Origin: a virus
DNA: 64,000 nucleotides
Strand: one strand, 5' to 3'
Virus record (IMG/VR): IMGVR_UViG_3300017917_001112
Coordinates: 1 to 64,000 of that record
In this document: one piece after another, positions 3,729 to 14,103 of the stretch
How the letters are laid out: every line of letters starts with the position of its first letter
Numbering within the stretch: the first letter of the stretch is position 1
Translations under genes and position numbers: made by a program
Notes under the pieces: generated by a model
What the model saw: only the letters and a program-made list of their open reading frames with translations
What the model was told of the DNA's origin: nothing
Databases searched by the model: none

Positions 3729-6145
3729 TGTAGTTCTACCATTTCGTTGTGTAATCTTTCTGATGCTCCAGATAAACCTCTAAGTGTTCTTGCATTGTCT
3801 ACGTTTTTTTGATTATTATATACAGTAAATGGTTGATAACCACGTCCGTCTGGTATAAAAGTTTTTCCGTAAACATCAAATCCTGGAACAAATGACATTG
3901 CAGAGATAACTACAGTTTGCACTTGTTTTTGTTGCTCGAAGTTTTGAGCATTCGACATTTCTTTTTGTGCTTCTTTTCCTTTTGATATCTCTTGTTGTTT
4001 TGCTACTTCTGCTCTTCTTTCATTAATTTCCTGTCTTGCTGTTTTTTGACCTCCAGCATTTTGAGAATCTGATTTAGCAGGTGTGCTCTGCGCACTTTGA
4101 GTAGTGCCTCCGCTAGTAGTCCCATCTTGTTTTTTCTCCTCTTGTCTTTTATCTTCTTGTTTCTCTTGTTTTCTTTCTGCGGCAACAGCAACAGCAGTAG
4201 GTGCTGGACCAGTGTTGTTTTCACTATTTTGTTTAGATAATTGAACTGGAGCAGCTGGTTCTGCAGCAGAATTAACTATTGCACTTTCTTTAATTACTCT
4301 GTCAGCATTACTATCACCTGTTTTAGAAACACCTGCCTCTATCTTACCATCAGAAGCAACAGCAATAGTTGTTTCTGTAGTAGATCTTGTAAAAGAAGTT
4401 GGCGATGGATTAGAAGAATTAGAAGCAGTTGAACTAGATGAATTTGAATTGTATCCTGGACACATTTTATTGGATTGTGGATTAGAACCACAAGAAGCAA
4501 GTGTCGTTGTGTAATTTGGGCAATAAGAATATGTTAATTGATTACTAGAGCAAGCATTACTAGCAGTAGTATATCCTGAACAAAGAGTATTACTCAGAGG
4601 ATTTGTTGAGCATGTTGTTTGTGCTGTTGAATATCCTGGACAATATGAAGCATATAGTGCATTCGAACTACATTGTGTTGTAGCATTTTGATAACTTGGA
4701 CAGTAAGACGCATAAAGTGGATTTAATGCGCATTGAGTTGAAGCAGTATTATATCCTGGACAAGCAGAGTCATACAATGGATTCGCTGTGCATTGTTGAT
4801 TTAGATATGCTTGAGCATATCCTGGACACTGCGGTGCATATAGAGGATTTAAAGAACATTGTTGAGTTAAATAAGCAGCAGCATATCCTGGACAAGAAGG
4901 ATTGTATAATTGATTAAGTGTGCATTGTTGATTGAAATATGCAGCAGCATATCCTGGACATTGTGGATCAAACAAAGCATTAGATGAACACTGTTGGTTG
5001 AAATATGCTTGAGCATATCCAGCACAAGATGGTGATGATAGGGGATTCGTTAAACATGGATCTGCTGTGTAAACTGCATTGCTATACATGTTACTGATTG
5101 TAGCAGTACCACTTGTCCAAGGCGACATTGCGAATGCTCCAAGAGTTGACATTGGAACAGAAGAGTTTAATCTGTATTTTTTTGAATACGAACCAGATAC
5201 TCCGTTGTTTCCACCATTATGTGTATTTGATTCGCTGAATATTGTTGCATTGTTGGTATCAGTTATAACTGTAGCAACACCTGCATCTGAATACTGCCAA
5301 CCTGTTAAACAAATACCAAACAAATCAATAAAGCTGCAGTATCTACCAGCAACATTGTAATTATATCCATAATCAAACCCATGAATAGTAGCACCTGCGC
5401 CTGCTAAAGCCAGTGCTTGATTGATAGCATATGCTTGGGTTCCTGTAGTTCCAGGTAAAAGATTATTACTTATTTGTACTGTATTATATCCTGGACATGA
5501 TGGAGAGTATGCTGGATTACTAACACATGGGTCAACTGTATAGTTTAATTTAAAATATGGATCTTTGAATTGTGGTCCATAATAACCTGCCCAAAATCTA
5601 CTGTCTTTACCAGTAAAAGAAAGAGTGGCATCGCCTACGCTCGCCAAAGAATATGGATTAGCAAATGTTTGCGTTTGACTCCATTGTGTCCATCCAGTAG
5701 TTGTTGCTGGTAAATTGTGAGAATATGATTGTAATACTGAACCATTATTACTTTTGATAGCTGCTGTAACTGATAGTGTTCCATCATAAGGATTTTGATT
5801 CATGTAAGTAGCACCATATTCCATGCCACCAATTTGAATTCCAGAACCAGATAGTGCTGAGTTAATTGCTAATGTATAACCGATAGTACCCTGAGTATAA
5901 CCAAACATAAACAATCCAGTTGATGCATTGTATCCAGGTTGATTACCACCAACAAAACCACCACCAGTTGAATTAGTAAGAGTAAATCCAGTCCAGTTAT
6001 ATTGTGTTCCTGCTGGAGCAGGATTAACTGTTGTTCCTGCTAAATTTGGAGTAGTTTGAACTTGTGCGTTAGAGTAAGAGAATGAGCAAAATAATAACAG
6101 GAATGCTCCAACCCACTTTGTTATCGAGTTCAAGATTCTGCTCAT
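3719..6145 (-). CDS. secreted Cys-rich repeat protein (808 aa)
   Basis: signal peptide; 11 repeats of C-x2-N-x6-C-[PAS]-[GSN]-Y; charged low-complexity C-terminus. Confidence 0.8.
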   Translation of the reverse strand: MSRILNSITKWVGAFLLLFCSFSYSNAQVQTTPNLAGTTVNPAPAGTQYNWTGFTLTNSTGGGFVGGNQPGYNASTGLFMFGYTQGTIGYTLAINSALSGSGIQIGGMEYGATYMNQNPYDGTLSVTAAIKSNNGSVLQSYSHNLPATTTGWTQWSQTQTFANPYSLASVGDATLSFTGKDSRFWAGYYGPQFKDPYFKLNYTVDPCVSNPAYSPSCPGYNTVQISNNLLPGTTGTQAYAINQALALAGAGATIHGFDYGYNYNVAGRYCSFIDLFGICLTGWQYSDAGVATVITDTNNATIFSESNTHNGGNNGVSGSYSKKYRLNSSVPMSTLGAFAMSPWTSGTATISNMYSNAVYTADPCLTNPLSSPSCAGYAQAYFNQQCSSNALFDPQCPGYAAAYFNQQCTLNQLYNPSCPGYAAAYLTQQCSLNPLYAPQCPGYAQAYLNQQCTANPLYDSACPGYNTASTQCALNPLYASYCPSYQNATTQCSSNALYASYCPGYSTAQTTCSTNPLSNTLCSGYTTASNACSSNQLTYSYCPNYTTTLASCGSNPQSNKMCPGYNSNSSSSTASNSSNPSPTSFTRSTTETTIAVASDGKIEAGVSKTGDSNADRVIKESAIVNSAAEPAAPVQLSKQNSENNTGPAPTAVAVAAERKQEKQEDKRQEEKKQDGTTSGGTTQSAQSTPAKSDSQNAGGQKTARQEINERRAEVAKQQEISKGKEAQKEMSNAQNFEQQKQVQTVVISAMSFVPGFDVYGKTFIPDGRGYQPFTVYNNQKNVDNARTLRGLSGASERLHNEMVELQWK

Positions 6146-6883: not shown

Positions 6884-7189
6884 ATGAAAGGAAATATAAT
6901 GATTAATGAAATTGATAAAGAGATCCTGCTCATAACTCAGGAAGAATGTGCTGAAGTCAGTCAAGCAATCAGCAAAGTGTTTCGATTTGGTGCTGATGAT
7001 GTATTCAAAGGAATAAGCAATCGTCAACATCTTGAAGAAGAAGTTGGTGATTTAATGTGTATGATTGATCTTCTCATCGATAATGGTATCGTCAGCGAAG
7101 CAGCTGTGATGACTGCGAAACATGAGAAGATGAACAAGTTGATGACGTGGTCAAAAATTTTTTCCGAAATTGAAGAAAAAAGTGCTTGA
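6884..7189 (+). CDS. mazG: MazG-like nucleotide pyrophosphohydrolase
   Basis: EECAEVSQAISK...LEEEVGDL motif pair. Confidence 0.8.
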   Translation: MKGNIMINEIDKEILLITQEECAEVSQAISKVFRFGADDVFKGISNRQHLEEEVGDLMCMIDLLIDNGIVSEAAVMTAKHEKMNKLMTWSKIFSEIEEKSA

Positions 7190-7214
7190 CATATATAAAT
7201 AGATGAGGTATACT
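7186..7214 (+). promoter_or_regulatory. sigma70-type promoter with an embedded TATAAATA late motif
   Basis: TTGACA-17bp-TATACT; TATAAATA at 7194-7201. Confidence 0.8.
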
Positions 7215-7251
7215 TAATACCTCGATAATTGATAAAAGGATTTCAATTCAA

Positions 7252-7374
7252 ATGTTACAACTCTGTATGCATCAGCAAAGTTTAAGAGCCATCAAGGGAT
7301 GGTCGCTAGATGCACGCACATCAACATTTGCGTATGGCAATCCAGAGATTGATTGTGGGGGTACGGTAAGGTAA
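7252..7374 (+). CDS. putative attenuator leader peptide (40 aa, MLQLCMHQQSLRAIKGWSLDARTSTFAYGNPEIDCGGTVR)
   Basis: AAAGGA SD at 7235-7240; contains all 20 amino acids; last codons carry the antiterminator strand GGGGTAC. Confidence 0.7.
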   Translation: MLQLCMHQQSLRAIKGWSLDARTSTFAYGNPEIDCGGTVR

Positions 7375-7400
7375 ACGACCAAAAGTTTCCAAACCAAAGT

Positions 7401-7437
7401 ACCCCAAGAGATGAAAGTCCTTGGGGTTTTTTGTTTT
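7401..7437 (+). terminator. intrinsic terminator of the putative attenuator
   Basis: ACCCCAAG/CTTGGGGT stem plus TTTTTGTTTT; 5' strand overlaps GTACCCC, complementary to 7358-7364. Confidence 0.85.
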
Positions 7438-7523: not shown

Positions 7524-7599
7524 GCTCGGTTCGTCTATCGGTCTAGGACACTGCCCTTTCACGGCAGGAAGAGGGGTTCGATTCCCCTACCGAGTACCA
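7524..7599 (+). tRNA. tRNA-Glu(TTC)
   Basis: cloverleaf; anticodon arm CTGCC-CTTTCAC-GGCAG; CCA. Confidence 0.95.
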
Positions 7600-7600
7600 T

Positions 7601-7715
7601 TTATTTTGCTGATTGTAAGCGATGGGCTTGATCATGCCTGACTAACTATGACGATAAGATGTAAACTCGAGTAAAGCATATGAGTCATAGCATACAGTGC
7701 AGTCAGCAAAATCAA
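7601..7715 (+). ncRNA. unassigned structured RNA (long closing stem with internal hairpins)
   Basis: ATTTTGCTGATTGTA pairs with TGCAGTCAGCAAAAT; inner CTATGAC/GTCATAG and GGGC/GCCT. Confidence 0.5.
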
Positions 7716-7716
7716 T

Positions 7717-7754
7717 GGTAGTAGACTCGTCGGGAGACGCTCAGGCTACCACCA
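7717..7754 (+). ncRNA. CCA-ended tRNA-like minihelix
   Basis: GGTAGT...GCTACC-ACCA acceptor-like stem enclosing a small CGTC/GACG hairpin. Confidence 0.45.
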
Positions 7755-7760
7755 ATTTAT

Positions 7761-7834
7761 GCGGGATTAGTTTAATGGTAAAACGGCAGTCTTCCAAACT
7801 TCAGTCGTGAGTTCGATTCTCACATTCCGCTCCA
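7761..7834 (+). tRNA. tRNA-Gly(TCC)
   Basis: cloverleaf; loop CTTCCAA; TCCA end. Confidence 0.93.
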
Positions 7835-7841
7835 CTTATAT

Positions 7842-7934
7842 GGGTGTGTTGATGCTATGGCGTGTGCATCCTCGGACTGTAAATCCGATCCCTCTGGGTA
7901 AACATTGTTGGTTCGACTCCAACCACACCCACCA
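7842..7934 (+). tRNA. tRNA-Tyr(GTA), atypical extended D-arm
   Basis: TCGGA-CTGTAAA-TCCGA; long variable arm; ACCA. Confidence 0.9.
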
Positions 7935-7939
7935 TATAA

Positions 7940-8014
7940 GGTTCCAAAGTGTTCACGGACGCACGTTGGCTTGTCACGCCAAAAGAAGGGGATCGTTACC
8001 CCTTGGGACCGCCA
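7940..8014 (+). tRNA. tRNA-Asp(GTC)
   Basis: TTGGC-TTGTCAC-GCCAA; non-canonical T-loop ATCGTTA; GCCA. Confidence 0.9.
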
Positions 8015-8022
8015 AATACTAC

Positions 8023-8051
8023 TTGACAATTTTTAATGTTTAGTGTATAAT
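8023..8051 (+). promoter_or_regulatory. sigma70-type promoter inside the tRNA array
   Basis: TTGACA-17bp-TATAAT. Confidence 0.85.
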
Positions 8052-8075
8052 TGTTGTTTTTATTAGGAGAAAGAA

Positions 8076-8138
8076 ATGAAATTTATGAAGCGAAAGCGTA
8101 AGATGAAATGTCGAAAACGATTTGGGGGTATAACTTAG
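8076..8138 (+). CDS. Lys/Arg-rich micro-ORF (MKFMKRKRKMKCRKRFGGIT) running into tRNA-Lys
   Basis: strong AGGAG SD at 8065-8069 right after the promoter; stop lies inside the tRNA-Lys D-arm. Confidence 0.5.
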   Translation: MKFMKRKRKMKCRKRFGGIT

Positions 8139-8197
8139 TGGCAAAGTAGTAGGCTTTTAACCTATTAACCAGAGTTCGATTCTCTGTACCCCTACCA
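8124..8197 (+). tRNA. tRNA-Lys(TTT)
   Basis: GTAGG-CTTTTAA-CCTAT; ACCA. Confidence 0.93.
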
Positions 8198-8246
8198 ATC
8201 GCAATTATAAAAGCACACTAAATTAGTAGTGTATTTCTATAATTGA

Positions 8247-8322
8247 CGCAGAGTATGGAAGTGGTCATCCGTTCGGTCTCATAAGCCGAGAATCGCAGGT
8301 TCGAATCCTGCCTCTGCAACCA
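8247..8322 (+). tRNA. tRNA-fMet(CAT), initiator type
   Basis: C1:A72 mismatch; loop CTCATAA. Confidence 0.88.
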
Positions 8323-8329
8323 GTTTCGT

Positions 8330-8405
<76 letters not shown>

Positions 8406-8410
8406 GTTTT

Positions 8411-8466
8411 AGGATTCTTTCAGCAATTTAAAAACTTTCACTGTTAATGAAAAGAAAGCGAATCCT
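8411..8466 (+). ncRNA. CAGCAA-stem RNA 1 (Y-RNA-like; cargo is an Asn-type anticodon stem-loop)
   Basis: AGGATTC..TTCAGCAA...GAATCCT-GTT enclosing TTTCA-CTGTTAA-TGAAA. Confidence 0.75.
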
Positions 8467-8477
8467 GTTGTTTTATT

Positions 8478-8551
8478 GCCCTCATAGTTAAATGGTATAA
8501 CAGTTGCCTTGTAAGCATCAATTCGCAGTTCGATTCTGTGTGGGGGCACCA
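8478..8551 (+). tRNA. tRNA-Thr(TGT)
   Basis: loop CTTGTAA; ACCA. Confidence 0.92.
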
Positions 8552-8560
8552 AATTTTTAT

Positions 8561-8639
8561 CCGAGTGTAGGAAAGTCTGGTTTAATCCGTCTGCTTTGGG
8601 AGCAGAAGATCGCAGGTTCGAATCCTGCCACTCGGACCA
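8561..8639 (+). tRNA. tRNA-Pro(TGG)
   Basis: TCTGC-TTTGGGA-GCAGA; ACCA. Confidence 0.95.
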
Positions 8640-8646
8640 TCAATAT

Positions 8647-8720
8647 GGGGAATTAGTTAAATGGGATAACATCGGCTTTGCAAGCCGAGATTGAGAGTTC
8701 GATTCTCTCATTCTCCACCA
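8647..8720 (+). tRNA. tRNA-Ala(TGC)
   Basis: G3.U70; loop TTTGCAA; ACCA. Confidence 0.95.
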
Positions 8721-8726
8721 TGTTTT

Positions 8727-8843
8727 AGGATACTTACAGCAAATAAAAACTGCTCTTGAAAAGCAGAGGTTGTTGGTTCGAGTCCAACATTGTGTCTGAT
8801 GGCACGATTAGATCAATTGGTAGATCGCTAGAAAAAGTATCCT
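8727..8843 (+). ncRNA. CAGCAA-stem RNA 2 (YrlA-like circularly permuted tRNA cargo, TGA anticodon loop)
   Basis: AGGATACTT/AAGTATCCT closing stem; order is anticodon arm, variable, T-arm, loop-closed acceptor stem, D-arm. Confidence 0.85.
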
Positions 8844-8853
8844 GTTGTTTTTT

Positions 8854-8930
8854 GCCCCGATGACGGAATTGGTATACGTGCTTGCCTTAGAAGCAAGATT
8901 CTGAGAGTTCGAGTCTCTCTTGGGGCACCA
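8854..8930 (+). tRNA. tRNA-Leu(TAG), short variable loop
   Basis: CTTGC-CTTAGAA-GCAAG; ACCA. Confidence 0.92.
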
Positions 8931-8935
8931 TCTAT

Positions 8936-9025
8936 GGAGAGTTGGCAGAGTCTGGTTTATTGCACCTGTCTTGAAAACAGACGGATAGAAATGTCCCGTG
9001 AGTTCGAATCTCACACTCTCCGCCA
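8936..9025 (+). tRNA. tRNA-Ser(TGA)
   Basis: loop CTTGAAA; long variable arm; GCCA. Confidence 0.95.
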
Positions 9026-9030
9026 AATTA

Positions 9031-9105
9031 GCATCGTTAACTCAGTGGTAGAGTGCTTCCCTTACAAGGAAGAGGTCGGGAGTTCGACCCTCTCACGATG
9101 CACCA
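9031..9105 (+). tRNA. tRNA-Val(TAC)
   Basis: CTTCC-CTTACAA-GGAAG; ACCA. Confidence 0.95.
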
Positions 9106-9110
9106 AGTTT

Positions 9111-9210
9111 AGAATCGGTTCAGCAAAACATTTAACGTAGCTCATCGGTAGAGCAATTGCCTGCAACGCAATCAGAGTGGGTTCGATTCCCATCGATAAA
9201 AAACGATTCT
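9111..9210 (+). ncRNA. CAGCAA-stem RNA 3 (acceptor-less tRNA body, GCA anticodon)
   Basis: AGAATCG/CGATTCT closing stem; D-arm TAGCTCATCGGTAGAGC, ATTGC-CTGCAAC-GCAAT, T-arm GTGGG-TTCGATT-CCCAT; no acceptor stem or CCA. Confidence 0.8.
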
Positions 9211-9220
9211 GTTGATTAAT

Positions 9221-9296
9221 GCCCCATTGGTGAAATGGATGATCATACTGTGCTACGAACGCAGAGGTGGAGGTTCAATTCCTTCATGGGGTGCCA
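9221..9296 (+). tRNA. tRNA-Arg(ACG)
   Basis: loop CTACGAA; GCCA. Confidence 0.93.
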
Positions 9297-9304
9297 AACC
9301 ATTC

Positions 9305-9379
9305 AGCCGTGTAGCTCAGAGGAAGAGCAATCGCTTGATAAGCGATAGGTCGACATTTCGAAACTGTCCATGGCTACCA
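9305..9379 (+). tRNA. tRNA-Ile(GAT)
   Basis: ATCGC-TTGATAA-GCGAT; atypical T-arm GACAT-TTCGAAA-CTGTC; ACCA. Confidence 0.88.
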
Positions 9380-9384
9380 AATAT

Positions 9385-9458
9385 ATCTCGATAGTGTAAC
9401 GGCAGCATACCAGTCTCCAAAACTGTTGGTGGGGGTTCAAATCCCTCTCGGGATGCCA
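9385..9458 (+). tRNA. tRNA-Trp(CCA)
   Basis: loop CTCCAAA; GCCA. Confidence 0.92.
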
Positions 9459-9463
9459 TATAT

Positions 9464-9538
9464 GGTGATGTAGCACAGTGGTAGTGCAACTGCTTCATAC
9501 GCAGTAGGTCGTTGGCTCGAATCCAACCATCACCACCA
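9464..9538 (+). tRNA. tRNA-Met(CAT), probably elongator
   Basis: ACTGC-TTCATAC-GCAGT; T-loop CTCGAAT; ACCA. Confidence 0.85.
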
Positions 9539-9545
9539 AATCTGT

Positions 9546-9624
9546 TGGGGATTAGCCAAGTCTGGTCTAAGGCAGTGGTCTTTGAAGCCATCATTCACTG
9601 GTTCGAATCCAGTATCCCCTGCCA
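9546..9624 (+). tRNA. tRNA-Gln(TTG)
   Basis: loop CTTTGAA; unpaired 1:72; GCCA. Confidence 0.93.
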
Positions 9625-9631
9625 ATTCTAT

Positions 9632-9707
9632 GGTGTCTTTAGTGTAGAGGTTCGCACCCGACTCTGTGAAAGTCGTAGTATGGGATCGTTCCCCATAAGG
9701 CACCCCA
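9632..9707 (+). tRNA. tRNA-His(GTG)
   Basis: 8-bp acceptor with G-1; CGACT-CTGTGAA-AGTCG; T-loop ATCGTTC. Confidence 0.9.
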
Positions 9708-9716
9708 AACAATTTT

Positions 9717-9792
9717 GCTGCTTTAGCTGATGTGGTCATAGCAGGGGTCTGAAGAGCCTCGGAAAGTAGTTCGATTCTACTAGGCAGCACCA
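9717..9792 (+). tRNA. tRNA-Phe(GAA)
   Basis: loop CTGAAGA; ACCA. Confidence 0.92.
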
Positions 9793-9797
9793 AACAT

Positions 9798-9873
9798 GCG
9801 GAAGTAATTCAGTTGGTAGAATGTCTGCTTGCCAAGCAGAATGTCGCGAGTTCGAGTCTCGTCTTCCGCTCCA
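9798..9873 (+). tRNA. tRNA-Gly(GCC)
   Basis: TCTGC-TTGCCAA-GCAGA; TCCA. Confidence 0.95.
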
Positions 9874-9893
9874 GTCTTAGATCTTGTAGGGTA

Positions 9894-9922
9894 TTGACAT
9901 TTATTCGTTTTCGAGGTATAAT
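9894..9922 (+). promoter_or_regulatory. sigma70-type promoter
   Basis: TTGACA-17bp-TATAAT. Confidence 0.85.
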
Positions 9923-9942
9923 ATACTTTTAAGGAGAAATAA

Positions 9943-10104
9943 ATGAACGTCTATATTCTTTTTTCTAATAAAAATGTTATCGGTCTCGCTAAAGATGAAG
10001 CCGAAGCGAATCTTATGCTGTCTGAATATGAAATGGCTTTAGGTGCTGAAGACGCTGGTGATTTGTCTTTTATGGTTTGTGAAGTTAGCGAATATTGTGA
10101 TTAA
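9943..10104 (+). CDS. small acidic hypothetical protein (53 aa, MNVYILFSNK...)
   Basis: read manually; AAGGAG SD directly after the promoter. Confidence 0.7.
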   Translation: MNVYILFSNKNVIGLAKDEAEANLMLSEYEMALGAEDAGDLSFMVCEVSEYCD

Positions 10105-10123
10105 ATTTTAAGGAGATTGATTT

Positions 10124-10708
10124 ATGCCTAGTGTGTTTTTAGTGAGCGACACGCACTTCGGACACGCAGGTGTTTGTAAATTTTTGCGTGAGGATGGAAG
10201 TAAACTTCGACCATGGGACAATTCAGAAGAAATGGACGAAGACATGGTTAAGAGATGGAACGAAACAGTAAAACCAACTGACAAAGTTTACCATCTAGGT
10301 GATGTTGTTATTAATCGCAAAGCATTAAACATTATGCGTAGATTAAATGGTGATAAAGTTTTGATTCGTGGCAACCATGACATCTTTAAAGATGAAGATT
10401 ATCGTCAACACTTTAGAGAACTTCGTGCATATCATGTGATGAACGGAATGATTCTTTCACACATACCTATTCACGCAGATAGTCTTGGTCGTTTCGGTGT
10501 CAACATTCACGGACATCTACATTCTGGTAGAGTTATGAGACAACCTGAAGGTAGATACGGAATTCCAATAATTGATGCAAGATATCATTGCGTTTGTGTT
10601 GAACAAACAGACTTTCGTCCGATTTTATTTGAAGATGTTATTCAAAGAATTAAAGACGAGGGTGGGGTTATTGGTTTTAGAAATGGTAATGGTCCCTGTA
10701 TAGATTAG
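10124..10708 (+). CDS. calcineurin-like metallophosphoesterase
   Basis: SDTHFGH, HLGDV, RGNHD, LSHIP, IHGHLH motifs. Confidence 0.92.
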   Translation: MPSVFLVSDTHFGHAGVCKFLREDGSKLRPWDNSEEMDEDMVKRWNETVKPTDKVYHLGDVVINRKALNIMRRLNGDKVLIRGNHDIFKDEDYRQHFRELRAYHVMNGMILSHIPIHADSLGRFGVNIHGHLHSGRVMRQPEGRYGIPIIDARYHCVCVEQTDFRPILFEDVIQRIKDEGGVIGFRNGNGPCID

Positions 10709-10797
10709 GAGATTGGGCAGGATGGTAATGCAGCAGTTTGCTAAACTGTAGATCGTAGGAATGCGGTCAGTGGGTTCGACTCCCACAGTCTCCGCCA
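10708..10797 (+). tRNA. tRNA-Ser(GCT)
   Basis: loop TTGCTAA; long variable arm; GCCA. Confidence 0.95.
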
Positions 10798-10802
10798 TTT
10801 TT

Positions 10803-10879
10803 GTCGCCATAGTTCAGTTGGATAGAACAACTGCCTTCTAAGCAGTAGGTCGCAGGTTCGAGTCCTGCTGGCGACGCCA
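10803..10879 (+). tRNA. tRNA-Arg(TCT)
   Basis: ACTGC-CTTCTAA-GCAGT; GCCA. Confidence 0.95.
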
Positions 10880-10890
10880 TATATATTTTT

Positions 10891-10968
10891 GCCCCTGTGG
10901 ACAAATTGGTAAAGTCGTCTCTCTCAAAAGGAGAAGTTCTCTCAGTTCGAATCTGAGCAGGGGTACCA
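10891..10968 (+). tRNA. tRNA-Leu(CAA), short variable loop
   Basis: loop CTCAAAA; ACCA. Confidence 0.9.
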
Positions 10969-10973
10969 AATTT

Positions 10974-11048
10974 GGGCTGGTAGCTTAATGGTAAAGCAGC
11001 CGACTCATAATCGGTTGAGTGAGAGTTCAATTCTCTCCCAGCCCACCA
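10974..11048 (+). tRNA. tRNA(CAT), probably Ile2 (lysidine) type
   Basis: GCCGA-CTCATAA-TCGGT; GGGCTG acceptor; ACCA. Confidence 0.8.
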
Positions 11049-11062
11049 TTAATGGAGATAGT

Positions 11063-11596
11063 ATGAATCTAAACAATTTTGTAAAAGTTTATAATGTTGT
11101 GCCGAAAGATATATGTGAGTCGGTGATATTGTTATACGAGAATGATGAAGAGTGGAAAACACACAACTGGTATAACAATATTTCTGATGAAAAGAAAGCA
11201 CATCACACAAAGGAACTTGATGTCCTTTACAATAAAAATTTAGATGTTCTAAAACAATTTTTACAAAGTGCTTTACATAAATACTATGATGAGTTAAAAT
11301 TAAGTAACTTGGTAAGCAATCACAGTAATATAAGATTGAACAAGTATAAGACAGGAACTGTAATGTCAGAGCATTTTGATTTGATACGCAGAAATCCAAC
11401 AGATGGAATTCCTGTTCTTACATTTCTTGGCATACTAAATGACAATTTTAAAGGTGGACAATTTGTTTTAAACGGAGAGGTATTGAAATTAAAGCAAGGG
11501 GACATTATTATGTTTCCTTCTACGTTTCTATATCCGCATAGTGTAACAGAGGTAACAGAAGGAACAAGATATACATTTGTTGCTTGGGCATATTAA
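11063..11596 (+). CDS. 2OG-Fe(II) oxygenase
   Basis: HFD...LNDNFKGG...FPSTFLYPHSVTEVTEGTRY; start reassigned to MNLNNF (GGAG SD) because 10988 lies inside a tRNA. Confidence 0.88.
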   Translation: MNLNNFVKVYNVVPKDICESVILLYENDEEWKTHNWYNNISDEKKAHHTKELDVLYNKNLDVLKQFLQSALHKYYDELKLSNLVSNHSNIRLNKYKTGTVMSEHFDLIRRNPTDGIPVLTFLGILNDNFKGGQFVLNGEVLKLKQGDIIMFPSTFLYPHSVTEVTEGTRYTFVAWAY

Positions 11597-11597
11597 T

Positions 11598-11675
11598 GTT
11601 GGGGTGCCAGAGTGGTCTAATGGCGCAGTCTGCAAAACTGTCGATTCGTGGGTTCGAATCCCACCCTCAACTCCA
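11598..11675 (+). tRNA. tRNA-Cys(GCA)
   Basis: loop CTGCAAA; U73; TCCA. Confidence 0.93.
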
Positions 11676-11681
11676 AACAAT

Positions 11682-11758
11682 GCGGATGTGACGGAATAGG
11701 TATACGTATCGGACTTAAAATCCGAGTTTTGAGGGTTCGAGTCCCTCCATCCGTACCA
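11682..11758 (+). tRNA. tRNA-Leu(TAA), short variable loop
   Basis: TCGGA-CTTAAAA-TCCGA; ACCA. Confidence 0.92.
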
Positions 11759-11777: not shown

Positions 11778-12266
11778 ATGAGATATAGAGAAAAAATCAA
11801 TATTCAAGAAGTCAGAGATTTCGTTGAACAATGTGATCCAACAACAAAGATTTACATTGGTTGTGACTCTGAGAGATATAAAGTTGGCAAACAATGGTAT
11901 GCTGACTATATTCTTGCTGTTGTTGTTCATATCAATGGTAACAATGGATGTAAAATTTTTGGTGCGGTTCAGAAAGAAATGGACTTTGATCAAAAATACA
12001 ATCGTCCACGTATGCGTTTAATGAATGAAGTGTACAAGGTTGCGGAACTTTACTTAGAGCTTGCTCAAGAAATTCCGAATGATATCGAAGTTCACTTAGA
12101 CATTAATCCGAATGAAAACTATGGTTCTTCATGTGTAATAAACGAAGCAGTTGGTTACATTCGTGGAATGTGTAATGTTGTACCTTTGGTAAAACCGAAC
12201 GCATTCGCAGCATCTTATGCTGCAGATCGAATGAAACATGTTGTTGATTTTAGAAAAAGTGCTTGA
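11778..12266 (+). CDS. RNase H-like YkuK (DUF458) family protein
   Basis: IYIGCDS...RLMNEV...IEVHLDIN...KPNAFAASYAAD. Confidence 0.8.
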   Translation: MRYREKINIQEVRDFVEQCDPTTKIYIGCDSERYKVGKQWYADYILAVVVHINGNNGCKIFGAVQKEMDFDQKYNRPRMRLMNEVYKVAELYLELAQEIPNDIEVHLDINPNENYGSSCVINEAVGYIRGMCNVVPLVKPNAFAASYAADRMKHVVDFRKSA

Positions 12267-12291
12267 CATTTAAACATGTATCAAGTATAAT
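12263..12291 (+). promoter_or_regulatory. sigma70-type promoter for RNAs 4-5 and the Ro60-like gene
   Basis: TTGACA-17bp-TATAAT. Confidence 0.85.
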
Positions 12292-12311: not shown

Positions 12312-12529
12312 AGGATGGGTGCAGCAAGTATAAATTACTTAATGCCGAATGCCAGACAGAGGAGGACCACCGAAAGGTGTATTTTAAAACTGGCTAGACA
12401 GAAAAGTTGAAGTAAATCTGACGCTGGAAAGACAGCAAGATGATAGTATCCTATCAGTTTTCAGTGGGGCTGTCCGAAAGGAGACACTGGGGTTAGAATA
12501 AACCAAGTTAACATCAACCCAACCATCCT
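12312..12529 (+). ncRNA. CAGCAA-stem RNA 4 (218 nt, multi-hairpin cargo)
   Basis: AGGATGG..TGCAGCAA...CCATCCT-GTT; inner hairpins include CACC-GAAA-GGTG, GCTG-GAAAGA-CAGC, TGATAG/CTATCA, CAGTG/CACTG. Confidence 0.75.
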
Positions 12530-12553
12530 GTTATTTTTTGTTATAGGAGTTTT

Positions 12554-12668
12554 AGAATAGGTTCAGCAACCAAAATTACTAACAGCGAAAGCTGTATCAA
12601 GGGGTCGGGTTCGCCTGACGACCTGAGTTTCGAGTTCTCAGGTAAAACAAAAAGTAGAAAACTATTCT
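12554..12668 (+). ncRNA. CAGCAA-stem RNA 5 (three-hairpin cargo)
   Basis: AGAATAG..TTCAGCAA...CTATTCT-GTT; ACAGC-GAAA-GCTGT, GTCGGG-TTCG-CCTGAC, ACCTGAG/CTCAGGT. Confidence 0.75.
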
Positions 12669-12684
12669 GTTAAATGAGGTAATT

Positions 12685-14103
12685 ATGAACACTTTTGTTT
12701 CTGCCGTACAAAATCAATCTGCACGCACAACTAACGGCATGCGTGCCCGTAAATCTACTGCGTCTGCTTGCGTAGACTTGTTCTTCAAGATCGGCGCATC
12801 TCGTGGTAAAGATATCACGAAAGACTTCGTTGCTGCTTATGTTGAGAATCGCGAAGTAGCATTGCGTATTGCGCAGTGGGTTCGTGACGCACGTGGTGGC
12901 GCAGGTGAACGTGACTTGTTCCGTCAAATCCTGAAGTATCTTGACAAGCATCAACCTGAAGATGCTGCTCTTCTGTTGAACAAAGTTCCAGAGATCGGTC
13001 GTTGGGATGACATCTTTGTCGTAGAGAAAAACAAGCCAAAAGCATTTACTATGCTGGGTGATGCTCTGCGTGAACGTAATGGTCTTGCTGCTAAGTGGAC
13101 TCCACGTCAAGGTAAGTTGGCTGTTGAAATCCGTAACTTCTTTGGTATGTCTCCAAAGTTTTACCGTAAGTCTTTGGTCGAACTGACTAAAGTTGTTGAA
13201 ACTCAGATGTGCGCAAAAGACTGGGATAACATCAACTTCAGCCATGTGCCTTCTGTTGCGTCTGCACGCTACAAGAAAGCATTTTACCGTAACACTCAAG
13301 AGTACGCAAAGTACGTTGCGGAATTGGTGAAAGATCCAAAAGACCGCACTATGGATGTGAAGGTAAACGCTGGTGCAGTATATCCATACGATGTACTGAA
13401 GGGTGTTGTTGGTCACTATGTGACTAACTTCAACAAGACAGAACTTGACCTTGTTGAAAAACAATGGGAAGCACTCGAAAACTTTGTTGGTGACGCAAAC
13501 GTGTTGCCACTGGTTGACGTGTCTGGTTCTATGTCTGTGCCTGTTGGTAAGAACGCAAACCTTTCTTGCCTTACTGTTGCTGTATCTCTGGGTCTATACC
13601 TAGCAGATAAAAACACAGGTAAGTTCAAGGACACGTTCTTGACTTTCTCTGGCTCACCAGAGTTGCTGCATCTGAAAGGTACAATCCTGCAGAAAGTGCA
13701 ACAAATGGTTAAGTCTAACTGGGATATGAACACTAACTTGGTGAAGGCGATGGATAAAATCCTGAAGACTGCCAAGGACGGTAACGTGCCTCAGGAAGAA
13801 ATGCCAGAAATGCTTCTGATTCTGTCAGACATGCAGTTCGATCAATGCGCAAAGTTTGACGACTCTGCGATGAAAATGATTGAACGTAAGTTCAACGAAG
13901 CTGGTTACGATCTGCCAAAGATCGTGTTCTGGAATCTGAATGCGCATGACAATGTGCCTGTGAAGTATGACACACGTGGGGTTGCTTTGGTTTCTGGATT
14001 CAGCCCAGCAATCATGAAAGCAGTTCTTGCTGGTGATACTGAACAGTTTACACCAGAAGCAATTATGCTGAAGGCAGTTATGGTGGATCGTTACGCCATC
14101 TAA
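12685..14103 (+). CDS. Ro60/TROVE-like RNA-binding protein with C-terminal vWA domain (DUF2828-type)
   Basis: RDARGGAGER, GRWDD, AAKWTPR, VPSVA, YPYD; MIDAS DVSGSM; LSDMQFD; IVFWNL; VSGFSP. Confidence 0.85.
   Translation: MNTFVSAVQNQSARTTNGMRARKSTASACVDLFFKIGASRGKDITKDFVAAYVENREVALRIAQWVRDARGGAGERDLFRQILKYLDKHQPEDAALLLNKVPEIGRWDDIFVVEKNKPKAFTMLGDALRERNGLAAKWTPRQGKLAVEIRNFFGMSPKFYRKSLVELTKVVETQMCAKDWDNINFSHVPSVASARYKKAFYRNTQEYAKYVAELVKDPKDRTMDVKVNAGAVYPYDVLKGVVGHYVTNFNKTELDLVEKQWEALENFVGDANVLPLVDVSGSMSVPVGKNANLSCLTVAVSLGLYLADKNTGKFKDTFLTFSGSPELLHLKGTILQKVQQMVKSNWDMNTNLVKAMDKILKTAKDGNVPQEEMPEMLLILSDMQFDQCAKFDDSAMKMIERKFNEAGYDLPKIVFWNLNAHDNVPVKYDTRGVALVSGFSPAIMKAVLAGDTEQFTPEAIMLKAVMVDRYAI

What the first reader, a model, noticed from the sequence alone, without database searches (positions are those of the whole stretch)
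9111..9210. tRNA body whose acceptor stem is replaced by the CAGCAA handle
Seen: canonical-order D-arm, anticodon arm with GCA (Cys) and T-arm are intact, but only 2 bp (CG/CG) of acceptor remain, there is no CCA, and A-rich linkers join to the shared closing stem. A true tRNA-Cys exists at 11598. Inference: intact arms plus the conserved handle argue for a purpose-built mimic rather than a decayed tRNA; automatic tools would probably call it a pseudo-tRNA.
Basis: partly seen in the sequence, partly recalled or inferred. Interest (0 to 1): 0.75.

Follow-up and report, generated by a model that had tools for sequence, protein, structure and literature searches.

The report
tRNA look-alike on a Ro60-partner RNA
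Inside its tRNA gene cluster, a lake phage carries a tRNA-shaped RNA that lacks the end needed for charging and sits on a conserved "handle" shared by small RNAs next to a Ro60-like protein gene; it is most likely one of that protein's partner RNAs, a family I found in neither Rfam nor the papers searched, though this scan has met it in other genomes.

Summary
The element is real (window 9109-9215, + strand). A 7-bp closing stem (AGAAUCG/CGAUUCU), then GUU-CAGCAA, and a 3' GUUG tail enclose a tRNA body with D, anticodon (GCA) and T arms.

Six of seven positions can pair, but only two are G-C. ARAGORN and Rfam call it a plain tRNA-Cys (60.7 bits), not a pseudogene.

It is still not an ordinary tRNA. 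It is the only one of 28 array tRNAs without an encoded CCA, and its discriminator is A. All 26 distinct real tRNA-Cys genes in related phages have U73-CCA.

The same handle frames four other RNAs in this genome and 225 in 80 related phage loci, with compensatory stem changes. It lies next to a DUF2828 gene whose predicted fold is Ro60 (Z 22.3). I also found it in Synechococcus phage BUCT-ZZ01, coliphage wV8, Bacillus phage KoopaTroopa and bacterial assemblies.

Fifteen further framed tRNA bodies keep the arms but never a normal acceptor or CCA. The two nearest share this element's handle, D arm and T arm but show other anticodons.

Most likely this is a Y-RNA-like partner of the Ro60-like protein that displays an unchargeable tRNA shape. 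Binding and function are inferred. This scan found the system before in at least 87 other genomes.

The parts
9109..9215 (+). Whole framed element E3: UU, closing stem, GUU-CAGCAA, tRNA-shaped cargo, closing stem, GUUGA tail
   Evidence: Handle model R1 scores 42.9 bits, E 6.8e-08, over the full model. Sequence read.
9111..9117 (+). 5' strand of the closing stem (AGAAUCG)
   Evidence: Pairs 7 of 7 with 9204-9210. The same stem sequence occurs in the homologues L177, L184, L007 and L012.
9118..9126 (+). 3-nt spacer GUU plus the invariant CAGCAA motif
   Evidence: CAGCAA was required by the scan that collected the 76 aligned frames, so its invariance there is by construction. The spacer is 3 nt in 220 of 225 frames although 2-4 nt were allowed.
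9131..9137 (+). Acceptor-like 5' strand (UUUAACG), weak
   Evidence: 6 of 7 positions pair with 9194-9200, only 2 of them G-C, with one A-A mismatch. The helix is not formed in the minimum-energy fold.
9140..9154 (+). D arm (GCUC-AUCGGUA-GAGC) with the G18 G19 equivalents
   Evidence: Rfam tRNA alignment. Identical over 19 of 19 nt to L177 and L184. All 4 D-stem pairs covary in alignment A3.
9156..9172 (+). Anticodon arm, loop CUGCAAC, anticodon GCA at 9163-9165
   Evidence: Differs from its nearest homologues in the loop and by a compensatory change in the closing pair.
9177..9193 (+). T arm (GUGGG-UUCGAUU-CCCAU)
   Evidence: Identical to L177 and L184 except for the last base of the 3' strand.
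9194..9203 (+). Acceptor-like 3' strand CGAUAAA, discriminator A (9201), AA linker; no CCA
   Evidence: the only one of 28 array tRNAs without an encoded CCA. The real tRNA-Cys genes have U73-CCA.
9204..9215 (+). 3' strand of the closing stem (CGAUUCU) and GUUGA tail
   Evidence: GUU follows the stem in 216 of 225 frames although the scan required only GU.
8411..8470 (+). E1: same handle carrying only an anticodon stem-loop (loop CUGUUAA, Asn-type)
   Evidence: R1 69.9 bits. Rfam Dicty_Class_I_RNA 33.4 bits, below the 41.5 cut-off.
8727..8848 (+). E2: same handle carrying a circularly permuted tRNA-like body (anticodon arm, T arm, closed acceptor hairpin, D arm)
   Evidence: R1 48.9 bits. Rfam YrlA 31.2 bits, below the 69 cut-off.
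12312..12535 (+). E4: same handle with about 190 nt of cargo of unknown type
   Evidence: Mechanical scan. No Rfam family matches. A consensus promoter lies at 12263-12291.
12554..12672 (+). E5: same handle, cargo type conserved directly upstream of the protein gene in relatives
   Evidence: R1 38.4 bits. Related cargos in many loci.
12685..14103 (+). Ro60-like protein gene (DUF2828 + DUF7788, 472 aa), the proposed partner
   Evidence: Pfam. AlphaFold2 pLDDT 92.9. Ro60 1yvr Z 22.3, 404 residues aligned, rmsd 4.0; Foldseek E 6.6e-09 to 9e-07.
11598..11675 (+). The phage's ordinary tRNA-Cys (GCA), for contrast
   Evidence: 7 of 7 acceptor pairs, U73, encoded CCA.
8023..8051 (+). Consensus TTGACA-17-TATAAT promoter, the nearest one upstream of E3
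   Evidence: That E3 is co-transcribed with the flanking tRNAs is inferred.

Best explanation
E3 is a non-coding RNA of a 'CAGCAA-handle' family, not a working tRNA.

The handle is a 7-bp closing stem that starts AG and ends CU, a 3-nt spacer, CAGCAA, an A-rich 3' linker and a short GUU(G) tail. I infer that it is the binding module for the phage's Ro60-like DUF2828 protein, in the way the stem of a Y RNA binds Ro60.

The cargo is a complete tRNA-shaped body with a Cys (GCA) anticodon loop. Its acceptor end is weak, lacks CCA and has A instead of the U73 that every real tRNA-Cys of this phage group carries. It therefore presents a tRNA shape that should not be charged.

E3 is probably made as part of the tRNA-array transcript and released when the flanking tRNA-Val and tRNA-Arg are processed.

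Its most likely job (inference, low confidence) is to present a tRNA or anticodon-loop look-alike to proteins that recognise tRNAs. It could act as a decoy or tether in the conflict between the phage and host systems that attack tRNAs.

Shown: the anatomy, family membership, covariation, linkage to the gene and the protein's Ro60 fold. Inferred: binding, processing and function.
For: Not an ordinary tRNA:
- It is the only one of 28 array tRNAs without an encoded CCA. It has 2 G-C acceptor pairs against 3-6 in the others, and discriminator A.
- All 26 distinct real tRNA-Cys genes of related phages end U73-CCA and match it at only 32-41 of about 71 positions.
- The genome has a normal tRNA-Cys and encodes no CCA-adding enzyme.

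Family membership:
- Model R1 hits E1, E2, E3 and E5 and nothing else below E 0.3 in the window. E4 is found by the mechanical scan only.
- The scan finds 225 frames on the gene strand, 11 on the opposite strand and 2 in shuffles over 869 kb. Features the scan did not require are conserved: AG start in 206 of 225, 3-nt spacer in 220, GUU tail in 216.
- Both stems covary.

Linkage to the protein:
- A frame ends within 300 nt upstream of the DUF2828 gene in 36 of 37 loci with a full flank.
- E4, E5 and the gene share one promoter.
- Frames also lie beside the gene or in the adjoining tRNA array in Synechococcus phage BUCT-ZZ01, coliphage wV8 and Bacillus phage KoopaTroopa.
- In bacterial and archaeal assemblies, 34 of 35 hits are on the gene strand, most just upstream of the gene.
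- Four tRNA-rich phages without the gene gave no hit.

Protein: the Ro60 fold over 404 of 472 residues, Z 22.3, against about 10 for vWA-only matches.

Modular display: L177 and L184 share E3's handle, D arm and T arm but carry UCU and UCC anticodons. Across the family the cargos show at least 13 different anticodon loops.
Against: - No expression data, RNA ends or binding data exist for this element.
- ARAGORN and Rfam accept it as a full tRNA. Its acceptor can form 6 of 7 pairs. Relative to L177 and L184 it has about 3 extra bases on each side of that helix. RNase P cleavage and CCA addition by a host enzyme therefore cannot be excluded.
- E3 lies 3.5 kb from the protein gene, is absent from the closest relatives, and no second GCA version was found. 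Conservation is shown for the class, not for this copy.
- The stem pairing in my frame set was required by the scan, so its 100% pairing is partly by construction.
- R1 missed the KoopaTroopa frames, so the four negative phages are weak controls.
- The genome encodes no RtcB or Rnl2-type ligase.
- The decoy or tether role has no direct support.
Confidence: 0.65

Rival explanations
1. E3 is a working, if unusual, second tRNA-Cys. RNase P and 3' processing would cut it out of the frame, a host enzyme would add CCA, and it would be charged.
For: ARAGORN calls it tRNA-Cys, and Rfam gives 60.7 bits over the full model. U8, G18 G19 and a canonical T loop are present. A 6-of-7 acceptor helix is possible, and it is lengthened on both sides compared with the nearest homologues.
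Against: It is the only one of 28 tRNAs without an encoded CCA. Its discriminator is A, whereas all 26 distinct real tRNA-Cys genes in relatives have U. U73 is a major CysRS identity element by established knowledge. It has only 2 G-C acceptor pairs plus an A-A mismatch, and the helix is absent from the minimum-energy fold. Its D arm is unlike those of the real tRNA-Cys genes. It sits inside a handle that scores E 6.8e-08. A normal tRNA-Cys exists 2.4 kb away.
Confidence: 0.07
2. E3 is a decaying tRNA pseudogene that happens to lie between short inverted repeats.
For: The acceptor end is degraded and CCA is missing. The element is absent from the closest relatives.
Against: All three arms are intact. 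The flanks match a specific family model. Homologous framed bodies keep their arms with compensatory changes, 13 of 21 pairs. [quoted passage not shown] That is the opposite of random decay.
Confidence: 0.02
3. The handle is a cis-acting processing, termination or insulator signal of tRNA operons, for example a nuclease entry site. It would not be a protein-partner module, and its nearness to the DUF2828 gene would follow from that gene sitting next to tRNA arrays.
For: Frames lie between tRNA genes on the tRNA strand. E1, E2 and E4 are followed by U runs. UU before the stem is nearly invariant. No binding data exist.
Against: Frames sit directly upstream of the gene in 36 of 37 loci, and also in the bacterial and archaeal assemblies searched; whether those loci carry tRNA arrays was not checked. 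E4 and E5 share the gene's promoter. The cargos are conserved, covarying structured RNAs, not spacers. Four tRNA-array phages without the gene gave no hits. The arrangement of gene plus adjacent partner RNAs is the known one for Ro60.
Confidence: 0.12
4. E3 is a tRNA-derived mobile insertion, a small inverted-repeat element that copies itself into tRNA spacers and has no function for the phage.
For: Compared with the 7-nt Val-Arg spacer of L009, the window has a clean insertion of about 108 nt. The 7-nt ends are inverted repeats. Copy number and position vary between relatives.
Against: The strand bias is strong, 225 against 11. The copies in this genome do not share cargo. Selection acts on RNA pairing, not on DNA ends. 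Linkage to one protein family holds across distant phages.
Confidence: 0.04

Closest known systems
Bacterial and mycobacteriophage Y RNAs of the YrlA type with Ro60/Rsr (Chen et al. 2014, PMC4201824; Rfam RF02553)
   Same: Small RNAs are encoded next to and on the same strand as a ring-shaped Ro60-fold protein gene. A terminal stem plus internal loop acts as the presumed protein module. [quoted passage not shown]
   Different: The protein is DUF2828/DUF7788, not a Pfam TROVE match. The handle has CAGCAA instead of the GNCGAA(N)G motif, and E3 contains no CGAA. E3 keeps the natural arm order and a full anticodon arm, both of which YrlA lacks. E3 gives no YrlA hit and E2 scores only 31.2 of 69 bits. 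There are many copies per genome, scattered through a tRNA array.
Thermus phage phiLo Ro60 with Yrl1 and Yrl2 (PMC12135203; PDB 9KOP, 9L5Y)
   Same: A phage-encoded Ro60-fold protein with partner RNAs encoded just upstream of its gene. The structure matches this protein's model (Z 15.7-16.7).
   Different: phiLo has a canonical TROVE protein, and its RNAs carry the CGAA motif without tRNA cargo. Here the protein belongs to another family and the RNAs have another motif and tRNA-part cargos.
Class I RNAs of dictyostelid social amoebae (Kjellin et al. 2021, PMC7919456; Rfam RF01414)
   Same: The frame is the same: a conserved 5' (A)AG, a short closing stem, an adjacent motif ending CAGCAA, a variable interior, a 3' stem strand and a CUGU end. 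E1 aligns over the full model at 33.4 bits, and relatives score 32.5 and 25.5.
   Different: All scores are below the 41.5-bit cut-off. E3 is about 105 nt against 42-65 nt. The promoters are bacterial-type, not DUSE. Class I RNAs are reported as unique to dictyostelids, with an RRM protein as their known binder. I could not check whether those amoebae have a DUF2828 protein.
Phage tRNA arrays and virus-encoded tRNAs that offset host attacks on tRNAs (reviewed in PMC7824862)
   Same: The genomic setting is the same, and the presumed arena, the host's and phage's struggle over tRNAs, is the same.
   Different: Those are chargeable replacement tRNAs. E3 lacks the chargeable end and is mounted on a handle.

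Membership tests
Functional tRNA-Cys | Cloverleaf with D, anticodon (GCA) and T arms | tested here: met
   ARAGORN calls tRNA-Cys(gca). Rfam tRNA scores 60.7 bits over model positions 1-71.
Functional tRNA-Cys | Stable 7-bp acceptor stem | tested here: inconclusive
   6 of 7 positions can pair, 2 of them G-C, with an A-A mismatch. The helix is not formed in the minimum-energy fold.
Functional tRNA-Cys | 3' CCA, encoded in every other tRNA of this array | tested here: not met
   27 of 27 other tRNAs encode CCA and E3 does not. No phage CCA-adding enzyme was found.
Functional tRNA-Cys | U73 discriminator | tested here: not met
   E3 has A at 9201. All 26 distinct tRNA-Cys genes of relatives and the window's own have U.
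Functional tRNA-Cys | Aminoacylation with cysteine | not testable with these tools
   Needs a charging assay.
CAGCAA-handle RNAs linked to DUF2828 (no published family found) | 7-bp closing stem starting AG and ending CU, 3-nt spacer, CAGCAA, 3' GUU tail | tested here: met
   Read directly. R1 scores 42.9 bits, E 6.8e-08.
CAGCAA-handle RNAs linked to DUF2828 (no published family found) | Same strand as, and in the neighbourhood of, a DUF2828 gene or its tRNA array | tested here: met
   E3 lies 3.5 kb upstream of the gene, on the same strand, within the array.
CAGCAA-handle RNAs linked to DUF2828 (no published family found) | Physical binding to the DUF2828 protein | not testable with these tools
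   The complex predictor takes no RNA. Pull-down or gel-shift experiments are needed.
YrlA / Y RNA (RF02553) | Reaches the Rfam gathering score of 69 bits | tested here: not met
   E3 gives no YrlA hit at E up to 10. E2 scores 31.2 bits.
YrlA / Y RNA (RF02553) | GNCGAA(N)G Ro60-binding motif near the 5' end | tested here: not met
   No CGAA occurs anywhere in 9109-9215. The motif is as defined in PMC4201824.
YrlA / Y RNA (RF02553) | Adjacent TROVE-domain Ro60 gene | tested here: not met
   PF05731 is absent from the genome. The neighbour has the Ro60 fold but belongs to other Pfam families.
Dictyostelium Class I RNA (RF01414) | Reaches the Rfam gathering score of 41.5 bits | tested here: not met
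   E3 gives no hit. E1 scores 33.4 bits; relatives score 32.5 and 25.5.
Dictyostelium Class I RNA (RF01414) | 5' G, short closing stem, 11-nt motif ending CAGCAA, 3' CUGU | tested here: met
   E3 has AG, a 7-bp stem, CGGUUCAGCAA (8 of 11 positions match the D. discoideum motif) and CUGU.
Dictyostelium Class I RNA (RF01414) | 42-65 nt long with a DUSE promoter | tested here: not met
   E3 is about 105 nt. The promoters here are TTGACA-17-TATAAT.
Ro60 fold (the neighbouring protein) | HEAT-repeat ring plus vWA domain with a MIDAS motif | tested here: met
   Z 22.3 to 1yvr over residues 9-453. D278, S280 and S282 are invariant.

The most novel reading that the evidence does not exclude
The CAGCAA handle is a universal adaptor for a second, unrecognised branch of Ro60 particles, and phages load it with interchangeable anticodon loops and whole tRNA bodies. 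E3 would be the Cys-displaying version of a scaffold that elsewhere shows UCU or UCC. The resulting panel of unchargeable tRNA decoys would trap or mislead host nucleases and enzymes that read anticodon loops. The same adaptor would underlie the unexplained Class I RNAs of social amoebae.
Probability: 0.2. Interest if true: 0.9.

Novelty: new variant of a known kind. Interest (0 to 1): 0.7.

Why it matters
DUF2828 is a very large protein family of unknown function. The search found 6256 representative clusters and 711 isolated phage records, including Felix O1-like, Listeria P100-like, KVP40-like and Campylobacter phages. A conserved partner RNA gives the family a testable function.

E3 shows that the cargo can be a whole tRNA shape stripped of its chargeable end. 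Its near-twins with other anticodons suggest that the anticodon loop is the swappable part. That points to proteins that read anticodon loops and makes the idea testable in laboratory phages such as wV8/Felix O1, BUCT-ZZ01 and KoopaTroopa.

There is also a practical point. Annotation pipelines will list such elements as ordinary tRNA genes and so overcount phage tRNAs.

Tried and rejected
- Other copies of the GCA version: an exact 22-nt search and a degenerate framed-GCA pattern in IMG/VR both found nothing. The window's own record may be hidden from such searches.
- Orthologues at the same locus: the Val-Arg spacer is only 1-8 nt in L001, L023 and L009, so there is no locus-level conservation test.
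- Rfam at gathering threshold over ten related loci: the 150-row list was filled by tRNAs and said nothing about other families. A short targeted search replaced it.
- Rfam on the E4 and E5 cargos: no meaningful match.
- Phage RNA-repair or CCA enzymes: no RtcB, Rnl2-type RNA ligase, PolyA_pol/CCA-adding enzyme or TROVE protein in the genome.
- Sequence-only link of the protein to Ro60: E about 0.07. The fold comparison was needed.
- Model R1 on Bacillus phage KoopaTroopa: no hit, although a relaxed pattern finds four to five frames there. R1 is therefore too narrow for divergent handles.
- Burroughs and Aravind 2016 (PMC5062991) is not held.
- A pseudoknot between CAGCA and the UGUUG tail was considered. 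Both sides are almost invariant, and the last tail base varies (G, A or U) without a partner change, so nothing supports it.
- A hairpin presenting CAGCAA as a loop appears in the E3 fold but cannot form in E1 or E5.
- Complex prediction was not used because it does not take RNA.

Full report
WHAT IS THERE

The window is the first 64 kb of a complete 165,256-bp virus record with direct terminal repeats and 36.9% G+C. It carries a permuted tmRNA and an array of 28 ARAGORN-called tRNA genes at 7524-11758.

The finding lies inside that array, between tRNA-Val (ends at 9105) and tRNA-Arg (starts at 9221). Read directly, the order is:
- UU, then the closing stem AGAAUCG (9111-9117);
- GUU, then CAGCAA (9121-9126), then the linker AACA;
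- a 71-nt tRNA-like body (9131-9201);
- AA, then CGAUUCU (9204-9210), then GUUGA.

The D arm, the anticodon arm (loop CUGCAAC, anticodon GCA) and the T arm are intact and in natural order.

IS IT A tRNA?

ARAGORN calls it tRNA-Cys. Rfam's tRNA model gives 60.7 bits over its whole length, inside the 46-76 bit range of its neighbours. Its count of two acceptor pairs is also too low: six of seven positions can pair.

The element is nevertheless the odd one out.
- All 27 other tRNAs encode CCA, have 3-6 G-C acceptor pairs and pair at 6-7 of 7 positions.
- This one has no CCA, two G-C pairs, an A-A mismatch and four A-U pairs.
- Its discriminator is A.

The window's real tRNA-Cys (11598-11675) and all 26 distinct tRNA-Cys genes in related phages end U73-CCA. 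They match the element at only 32-41 of about 71 positions, and their D arms are of a different type. The minimum-energy fold forms the closing stem and the three hairpins but not the acceptor helix. The genome encodes no CCA-adding enzyme.

THE HANDLE IS A FAMILY

A mechanical scan of the genome finds five elements built as AGRAUNN-NNN-CAGCAA-[cargo]-NNAUYCU-GUU:
- E1, 8411-8470: a bare Asn-type anticodon stem-loop.
- E2, 8727-8848: a circularly permuted tRNA-like body.
- E3: the finding.
- E4, 12312-12535: about 190 nt of cargo.
- E5, 12554-12672.

I fetched 80 related viral loci through the neighbouring protein (65-94% identity). The same scan gives 225 frames on the gene strand, 11 on the other strand and 2 in shuffled sequence over 869 kb. 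Features the scan did not demand are conserved: an AG start in 206 of 225, a 3-nt spacer in 220 and a GUU tail in 216.

Seventy-six distinct short frames align cleanly. Six of the seven closing-stem pairs show changes on both sides. Pairing itself was a condition of the scan, so its 100% value is partly by construction. The inner anticodon-like stem was not selected for. It is 86% paired, and all five of its pairs vary on both sides.

A covariance model of these frames (R1) finds E1, E2, E3 and E5 and nothing else below E 0.3 in the window and nothing else convincing in the whole genome.

THE NEIGHBOUR IS A Ro60-FOLD PROTEIN

The gene at 12685-14103 follows E4 and E5 behind a perfect consensus promoter. 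Its product matches DUF2828 and DUF7788. Pfam TROVE is absent from the genome.

An AlphaFold2 model built from 82 diverse relatives is confident (pLDDT 92.9, pTM 0.91). Its best structural matches are Ro60 proteins over nearly the full length:
- Foldseek E 6.6e-09 to 9e-07.
- VIA-align Z 22.3 to 1yvr, with 404 residues aligned at rmsd 4.0.
- Z 15.7-16.7 to the Thermus phage phiLo Ro60.
- Only about Z 10 for proteins that share just the vWA domain.

A DxSxS MIDAS motif is invariant. Sequence profiles alone reach Ro60 only weakly, at E about 0.07.

LINKAGE ACROSS DISTANT GENOMES

- In 36 of 37 related loci with a full upstream flank, a frame ends within 300 nt of the gene start.
- Synechococcus phage BUCT-ZZ01 (48% protein identity) has five R1 hits, two directly upstream of its gene.
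- Coliphage wV8, a Felix O1 relative at 38% identity, has three frames of the form AGACCNN-NNN-CAGCAA...NNGGUCU-G in the tRNA array that starts right after its gene.
- Bacillus phage KoopaTroopa has four to five frames (AGACAC-ACA-CAGCAA...GUGUCU-GUU) in its array and in front of its gene. R1 missed them and a relaxed pattern found them.
- In 80 bacterial and archaeal assemblies with the gene, 34 of 35 R1 hits are on the gene strand, most within 300 nt upstream.
- Four tRNA-rich phages without the gene gave no R1 hit. This is a weak control, because R1 is narrow.

The protein occurs in 711 isolated phage records, some annotated 'Ro-like RNA binding protein'.

WHERE E3 SITS IN THE FAMILY

Fourteen framed elements (E3 and 13 from relatives) share the plan handle, A-rich linker, short acceptor remnant, D-type hairpin, anticodon arm, T arm, A-rich linker, handle. 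On this alignment 99% of cells in the four stems pair, and 13 of 21 pairs show compensatory changes. With partners slid by 1-3 columns, only 32-46% pair.

A pattern search of IMG/VR for CAGCAA followed by E3's type of D arm gave 15 more framed bodies.
- Their anticodons are UCU (6), UCA (3), UCC (2), and CAU, UUU, UAG and CUC (one each).
- 1-6 of 7 acceptor positions can pair, with 0-4 contiguous pairs next to the T stem.
- None encodes CCA.
- All 15 lie in a tRNA array on the tRNA strand, beside a DUF2828 gene, or both.

The two closest, L177:6598-6698 and L184:2580-2681, are 82-83% identical to E3. They have the same closing stem, the same 19-nt D arm and the same T arm. The differences are concentrated in three places: the anticodon loop (UCU or UCC against GCA), a compensatory flip of the stem's closing pair, and about 3 extra bases on each side of E3's acceptor helix. 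The scaffold therefore looks conserved while the anticodon is exchanged.

E3 itself is a lineage-specific gain. L001 (94% protein identity), L023 and L009 have only 1-8 nt between tRNA-Val and tRNA-Arg. Against L009's AGTTAAT spacer, the window has a clean insertion of about 108 nt. No second GCA version was found. A bare Cys-type loop on a handle does occur in relatives.

HOW IT PROBABLY WORKS

By analogy with Ro60 and its Y RNAs, the closing stem with its CAGCAA-containing asymmetric loop would bind the ring protein, and the second module would engage something else. The precedents are bacterial YrlA RNAs, encoded next to the gene and mimicking tRNA, and phage phiLo Ro60, which binds RNAs encoded just upstream of its gene and recruits host PNPase.

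Here the second module is a tRNA shape or an anticodon loop. At least 13 anticodon types occur among the 60 short frames with canonical loops, led by UGU, UUU and UGA. The handle is joined at different points of the tRNA body: the acceptor end in E3, the D/anticodon junction in E2. This suggests that what matters is showing the tRNA part, not a fixed geometry.

I commit to this reading. E3 is released from the array transcript by the processing of its tRNA neighbours. It is bound by the DUF2828 protein through the handle. It offers an unchargeable Cys-type tRNA look-alike to tRNA-recognising proteins, as a decoy or tether in the phage-host contest over tRNAs.

The anatomy, the family, the linkage and the fold are shown. 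Binding, processing and the decoy role are inferred, and the decoy role has the least support.

COMPARISON WITH WHAT IS KNOWN

The element works like a Y RNA but is not a member of YrlA. It gives no Rfam hit for that family, has no CGAA motif, has no TROVE neighbour, and has natural arm order with a full anticodon arm.

The handle has the build of dictyostelid Class I RNAs: a 5' (A)AG, a short stem, a motif ending CAGCAA, a variable interior and a CUGU end. Short frames align to that Rfam model over its full length, but below the cut-off (33.4, 32.5 and 25.5 bits against 41.5). Those RNAs were reported as unique to social amoebae. I could not test whether the amoebae have a DUF2828 protein.

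I found no paper on DUF2828 function or on these RNAs.

This scan has met the DUF2828-plus-handle system before: 105 notes in at least 87 genomes, including a first-reader note on this window. I reached my reading before opening those notes, and it agrees with them.

VERDICT

The object is real and is not a decayed tRNA. It is almost certainly a member of an unpublished handle-RNA family tied to a Ro60-fold protein. I class it as a new variant of a known kind, the Ro60/Y-RNA particle.

Noticed in passing
window 7598-7760 (+): The 160-nt gap between tRNA-Glu and tRNA-Gly folds much better than shuffles (-47.7 kcal/mol, z -3.5). It forms a long closing helix of about 15 bp (UUUUGCUGAUUGUAA paired with a downstream strand containing UCAGCAAAA), followed by a mini-helix with a GGGA loop whose 3' side is followed by ACCA. 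Neither Rfam nor ARAGORN calls anything here. It may be another small RNA with a tRNA-like end.
   Followed up: partly
window 8076-8138 (+): Behind the consensus promoter at 8023-8051 and a Shine-Dalgarno-like AGGAG lies a 20-codon ORF (MKFMKRKRKMKCRKRFGGIT). It has 6 Lys and 4 Arg codons and runs into the first bases of tRNA-Lys (8124). It may be a second leader-peptide type control of the array, beside the one already noted at 7186-7437.
   Followed up: no
window 8727-8848 (+): E2 is a circularly permuted tRNA-like body on the same handle: anticodon arm, T arm, acceptor closed by a UGAU loop, D arm. It gives a full-length but sub-threshold YrlA match (31.2 of 69 bits).
   Followed up: partly
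window 12312-12535 (+): E4 carries about 190 nt of cargo with two CGAAAG-type hairpin loops. It matches no Rfam family. Relatives have 150-280-nt framed cargos at the same place in front of the protein gene.
   Followed up: partly
L193:10551-10659, L206:431-538 (-), L214:1769-1876 (-): Three framed tRNA bodies in other viral contigs show a UCA anticodon (complementary to the UGA codon). ARAGORN labels them tRNA-SeC.
   Followed up: no
L082:7755-7821, 7919-7983, 8317-8385 (Escherichia phage wV8) and L252:3687-3809, 4328-4398, 4891-4953, 5135-5261 (Bacillus phage KoopaTroopa): Cultured, laboratory-tractable phages carry handle RNAs between annotated tRNA genes and next to their DUF2828 gene. None of these RNAs is annotated. 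The handle stems differ (AGACC.., AGACAC..), but the spacing and CAGCAA are kept.
   Followed up: partly
window 8411-8470 and L019:4062-4119, 4297-4353: Short handle RNAs repeatedly align end to end with Rfam's Dictyostelium Class I RNA model, just below its cut-off. The shared frame (AG, stem, ...CAGCAA, ..., stem, CUGU) may mean the amoebal RNAs belong to the same wider class.
   Followed up: partly
window 11778-12266 (+), 10124-10708 (+), 10988-11596 (+): Protein genes are interleaved with the tRNA array and handle RNAs: an RNase H-like PF04308 protein directly before E4, a calcineurin-like phosphoesterase, and a 2OG-Fe(II) oxygenase. They may be RNA-end or RNA-modification enzymes of the same module.
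   Followed up: no
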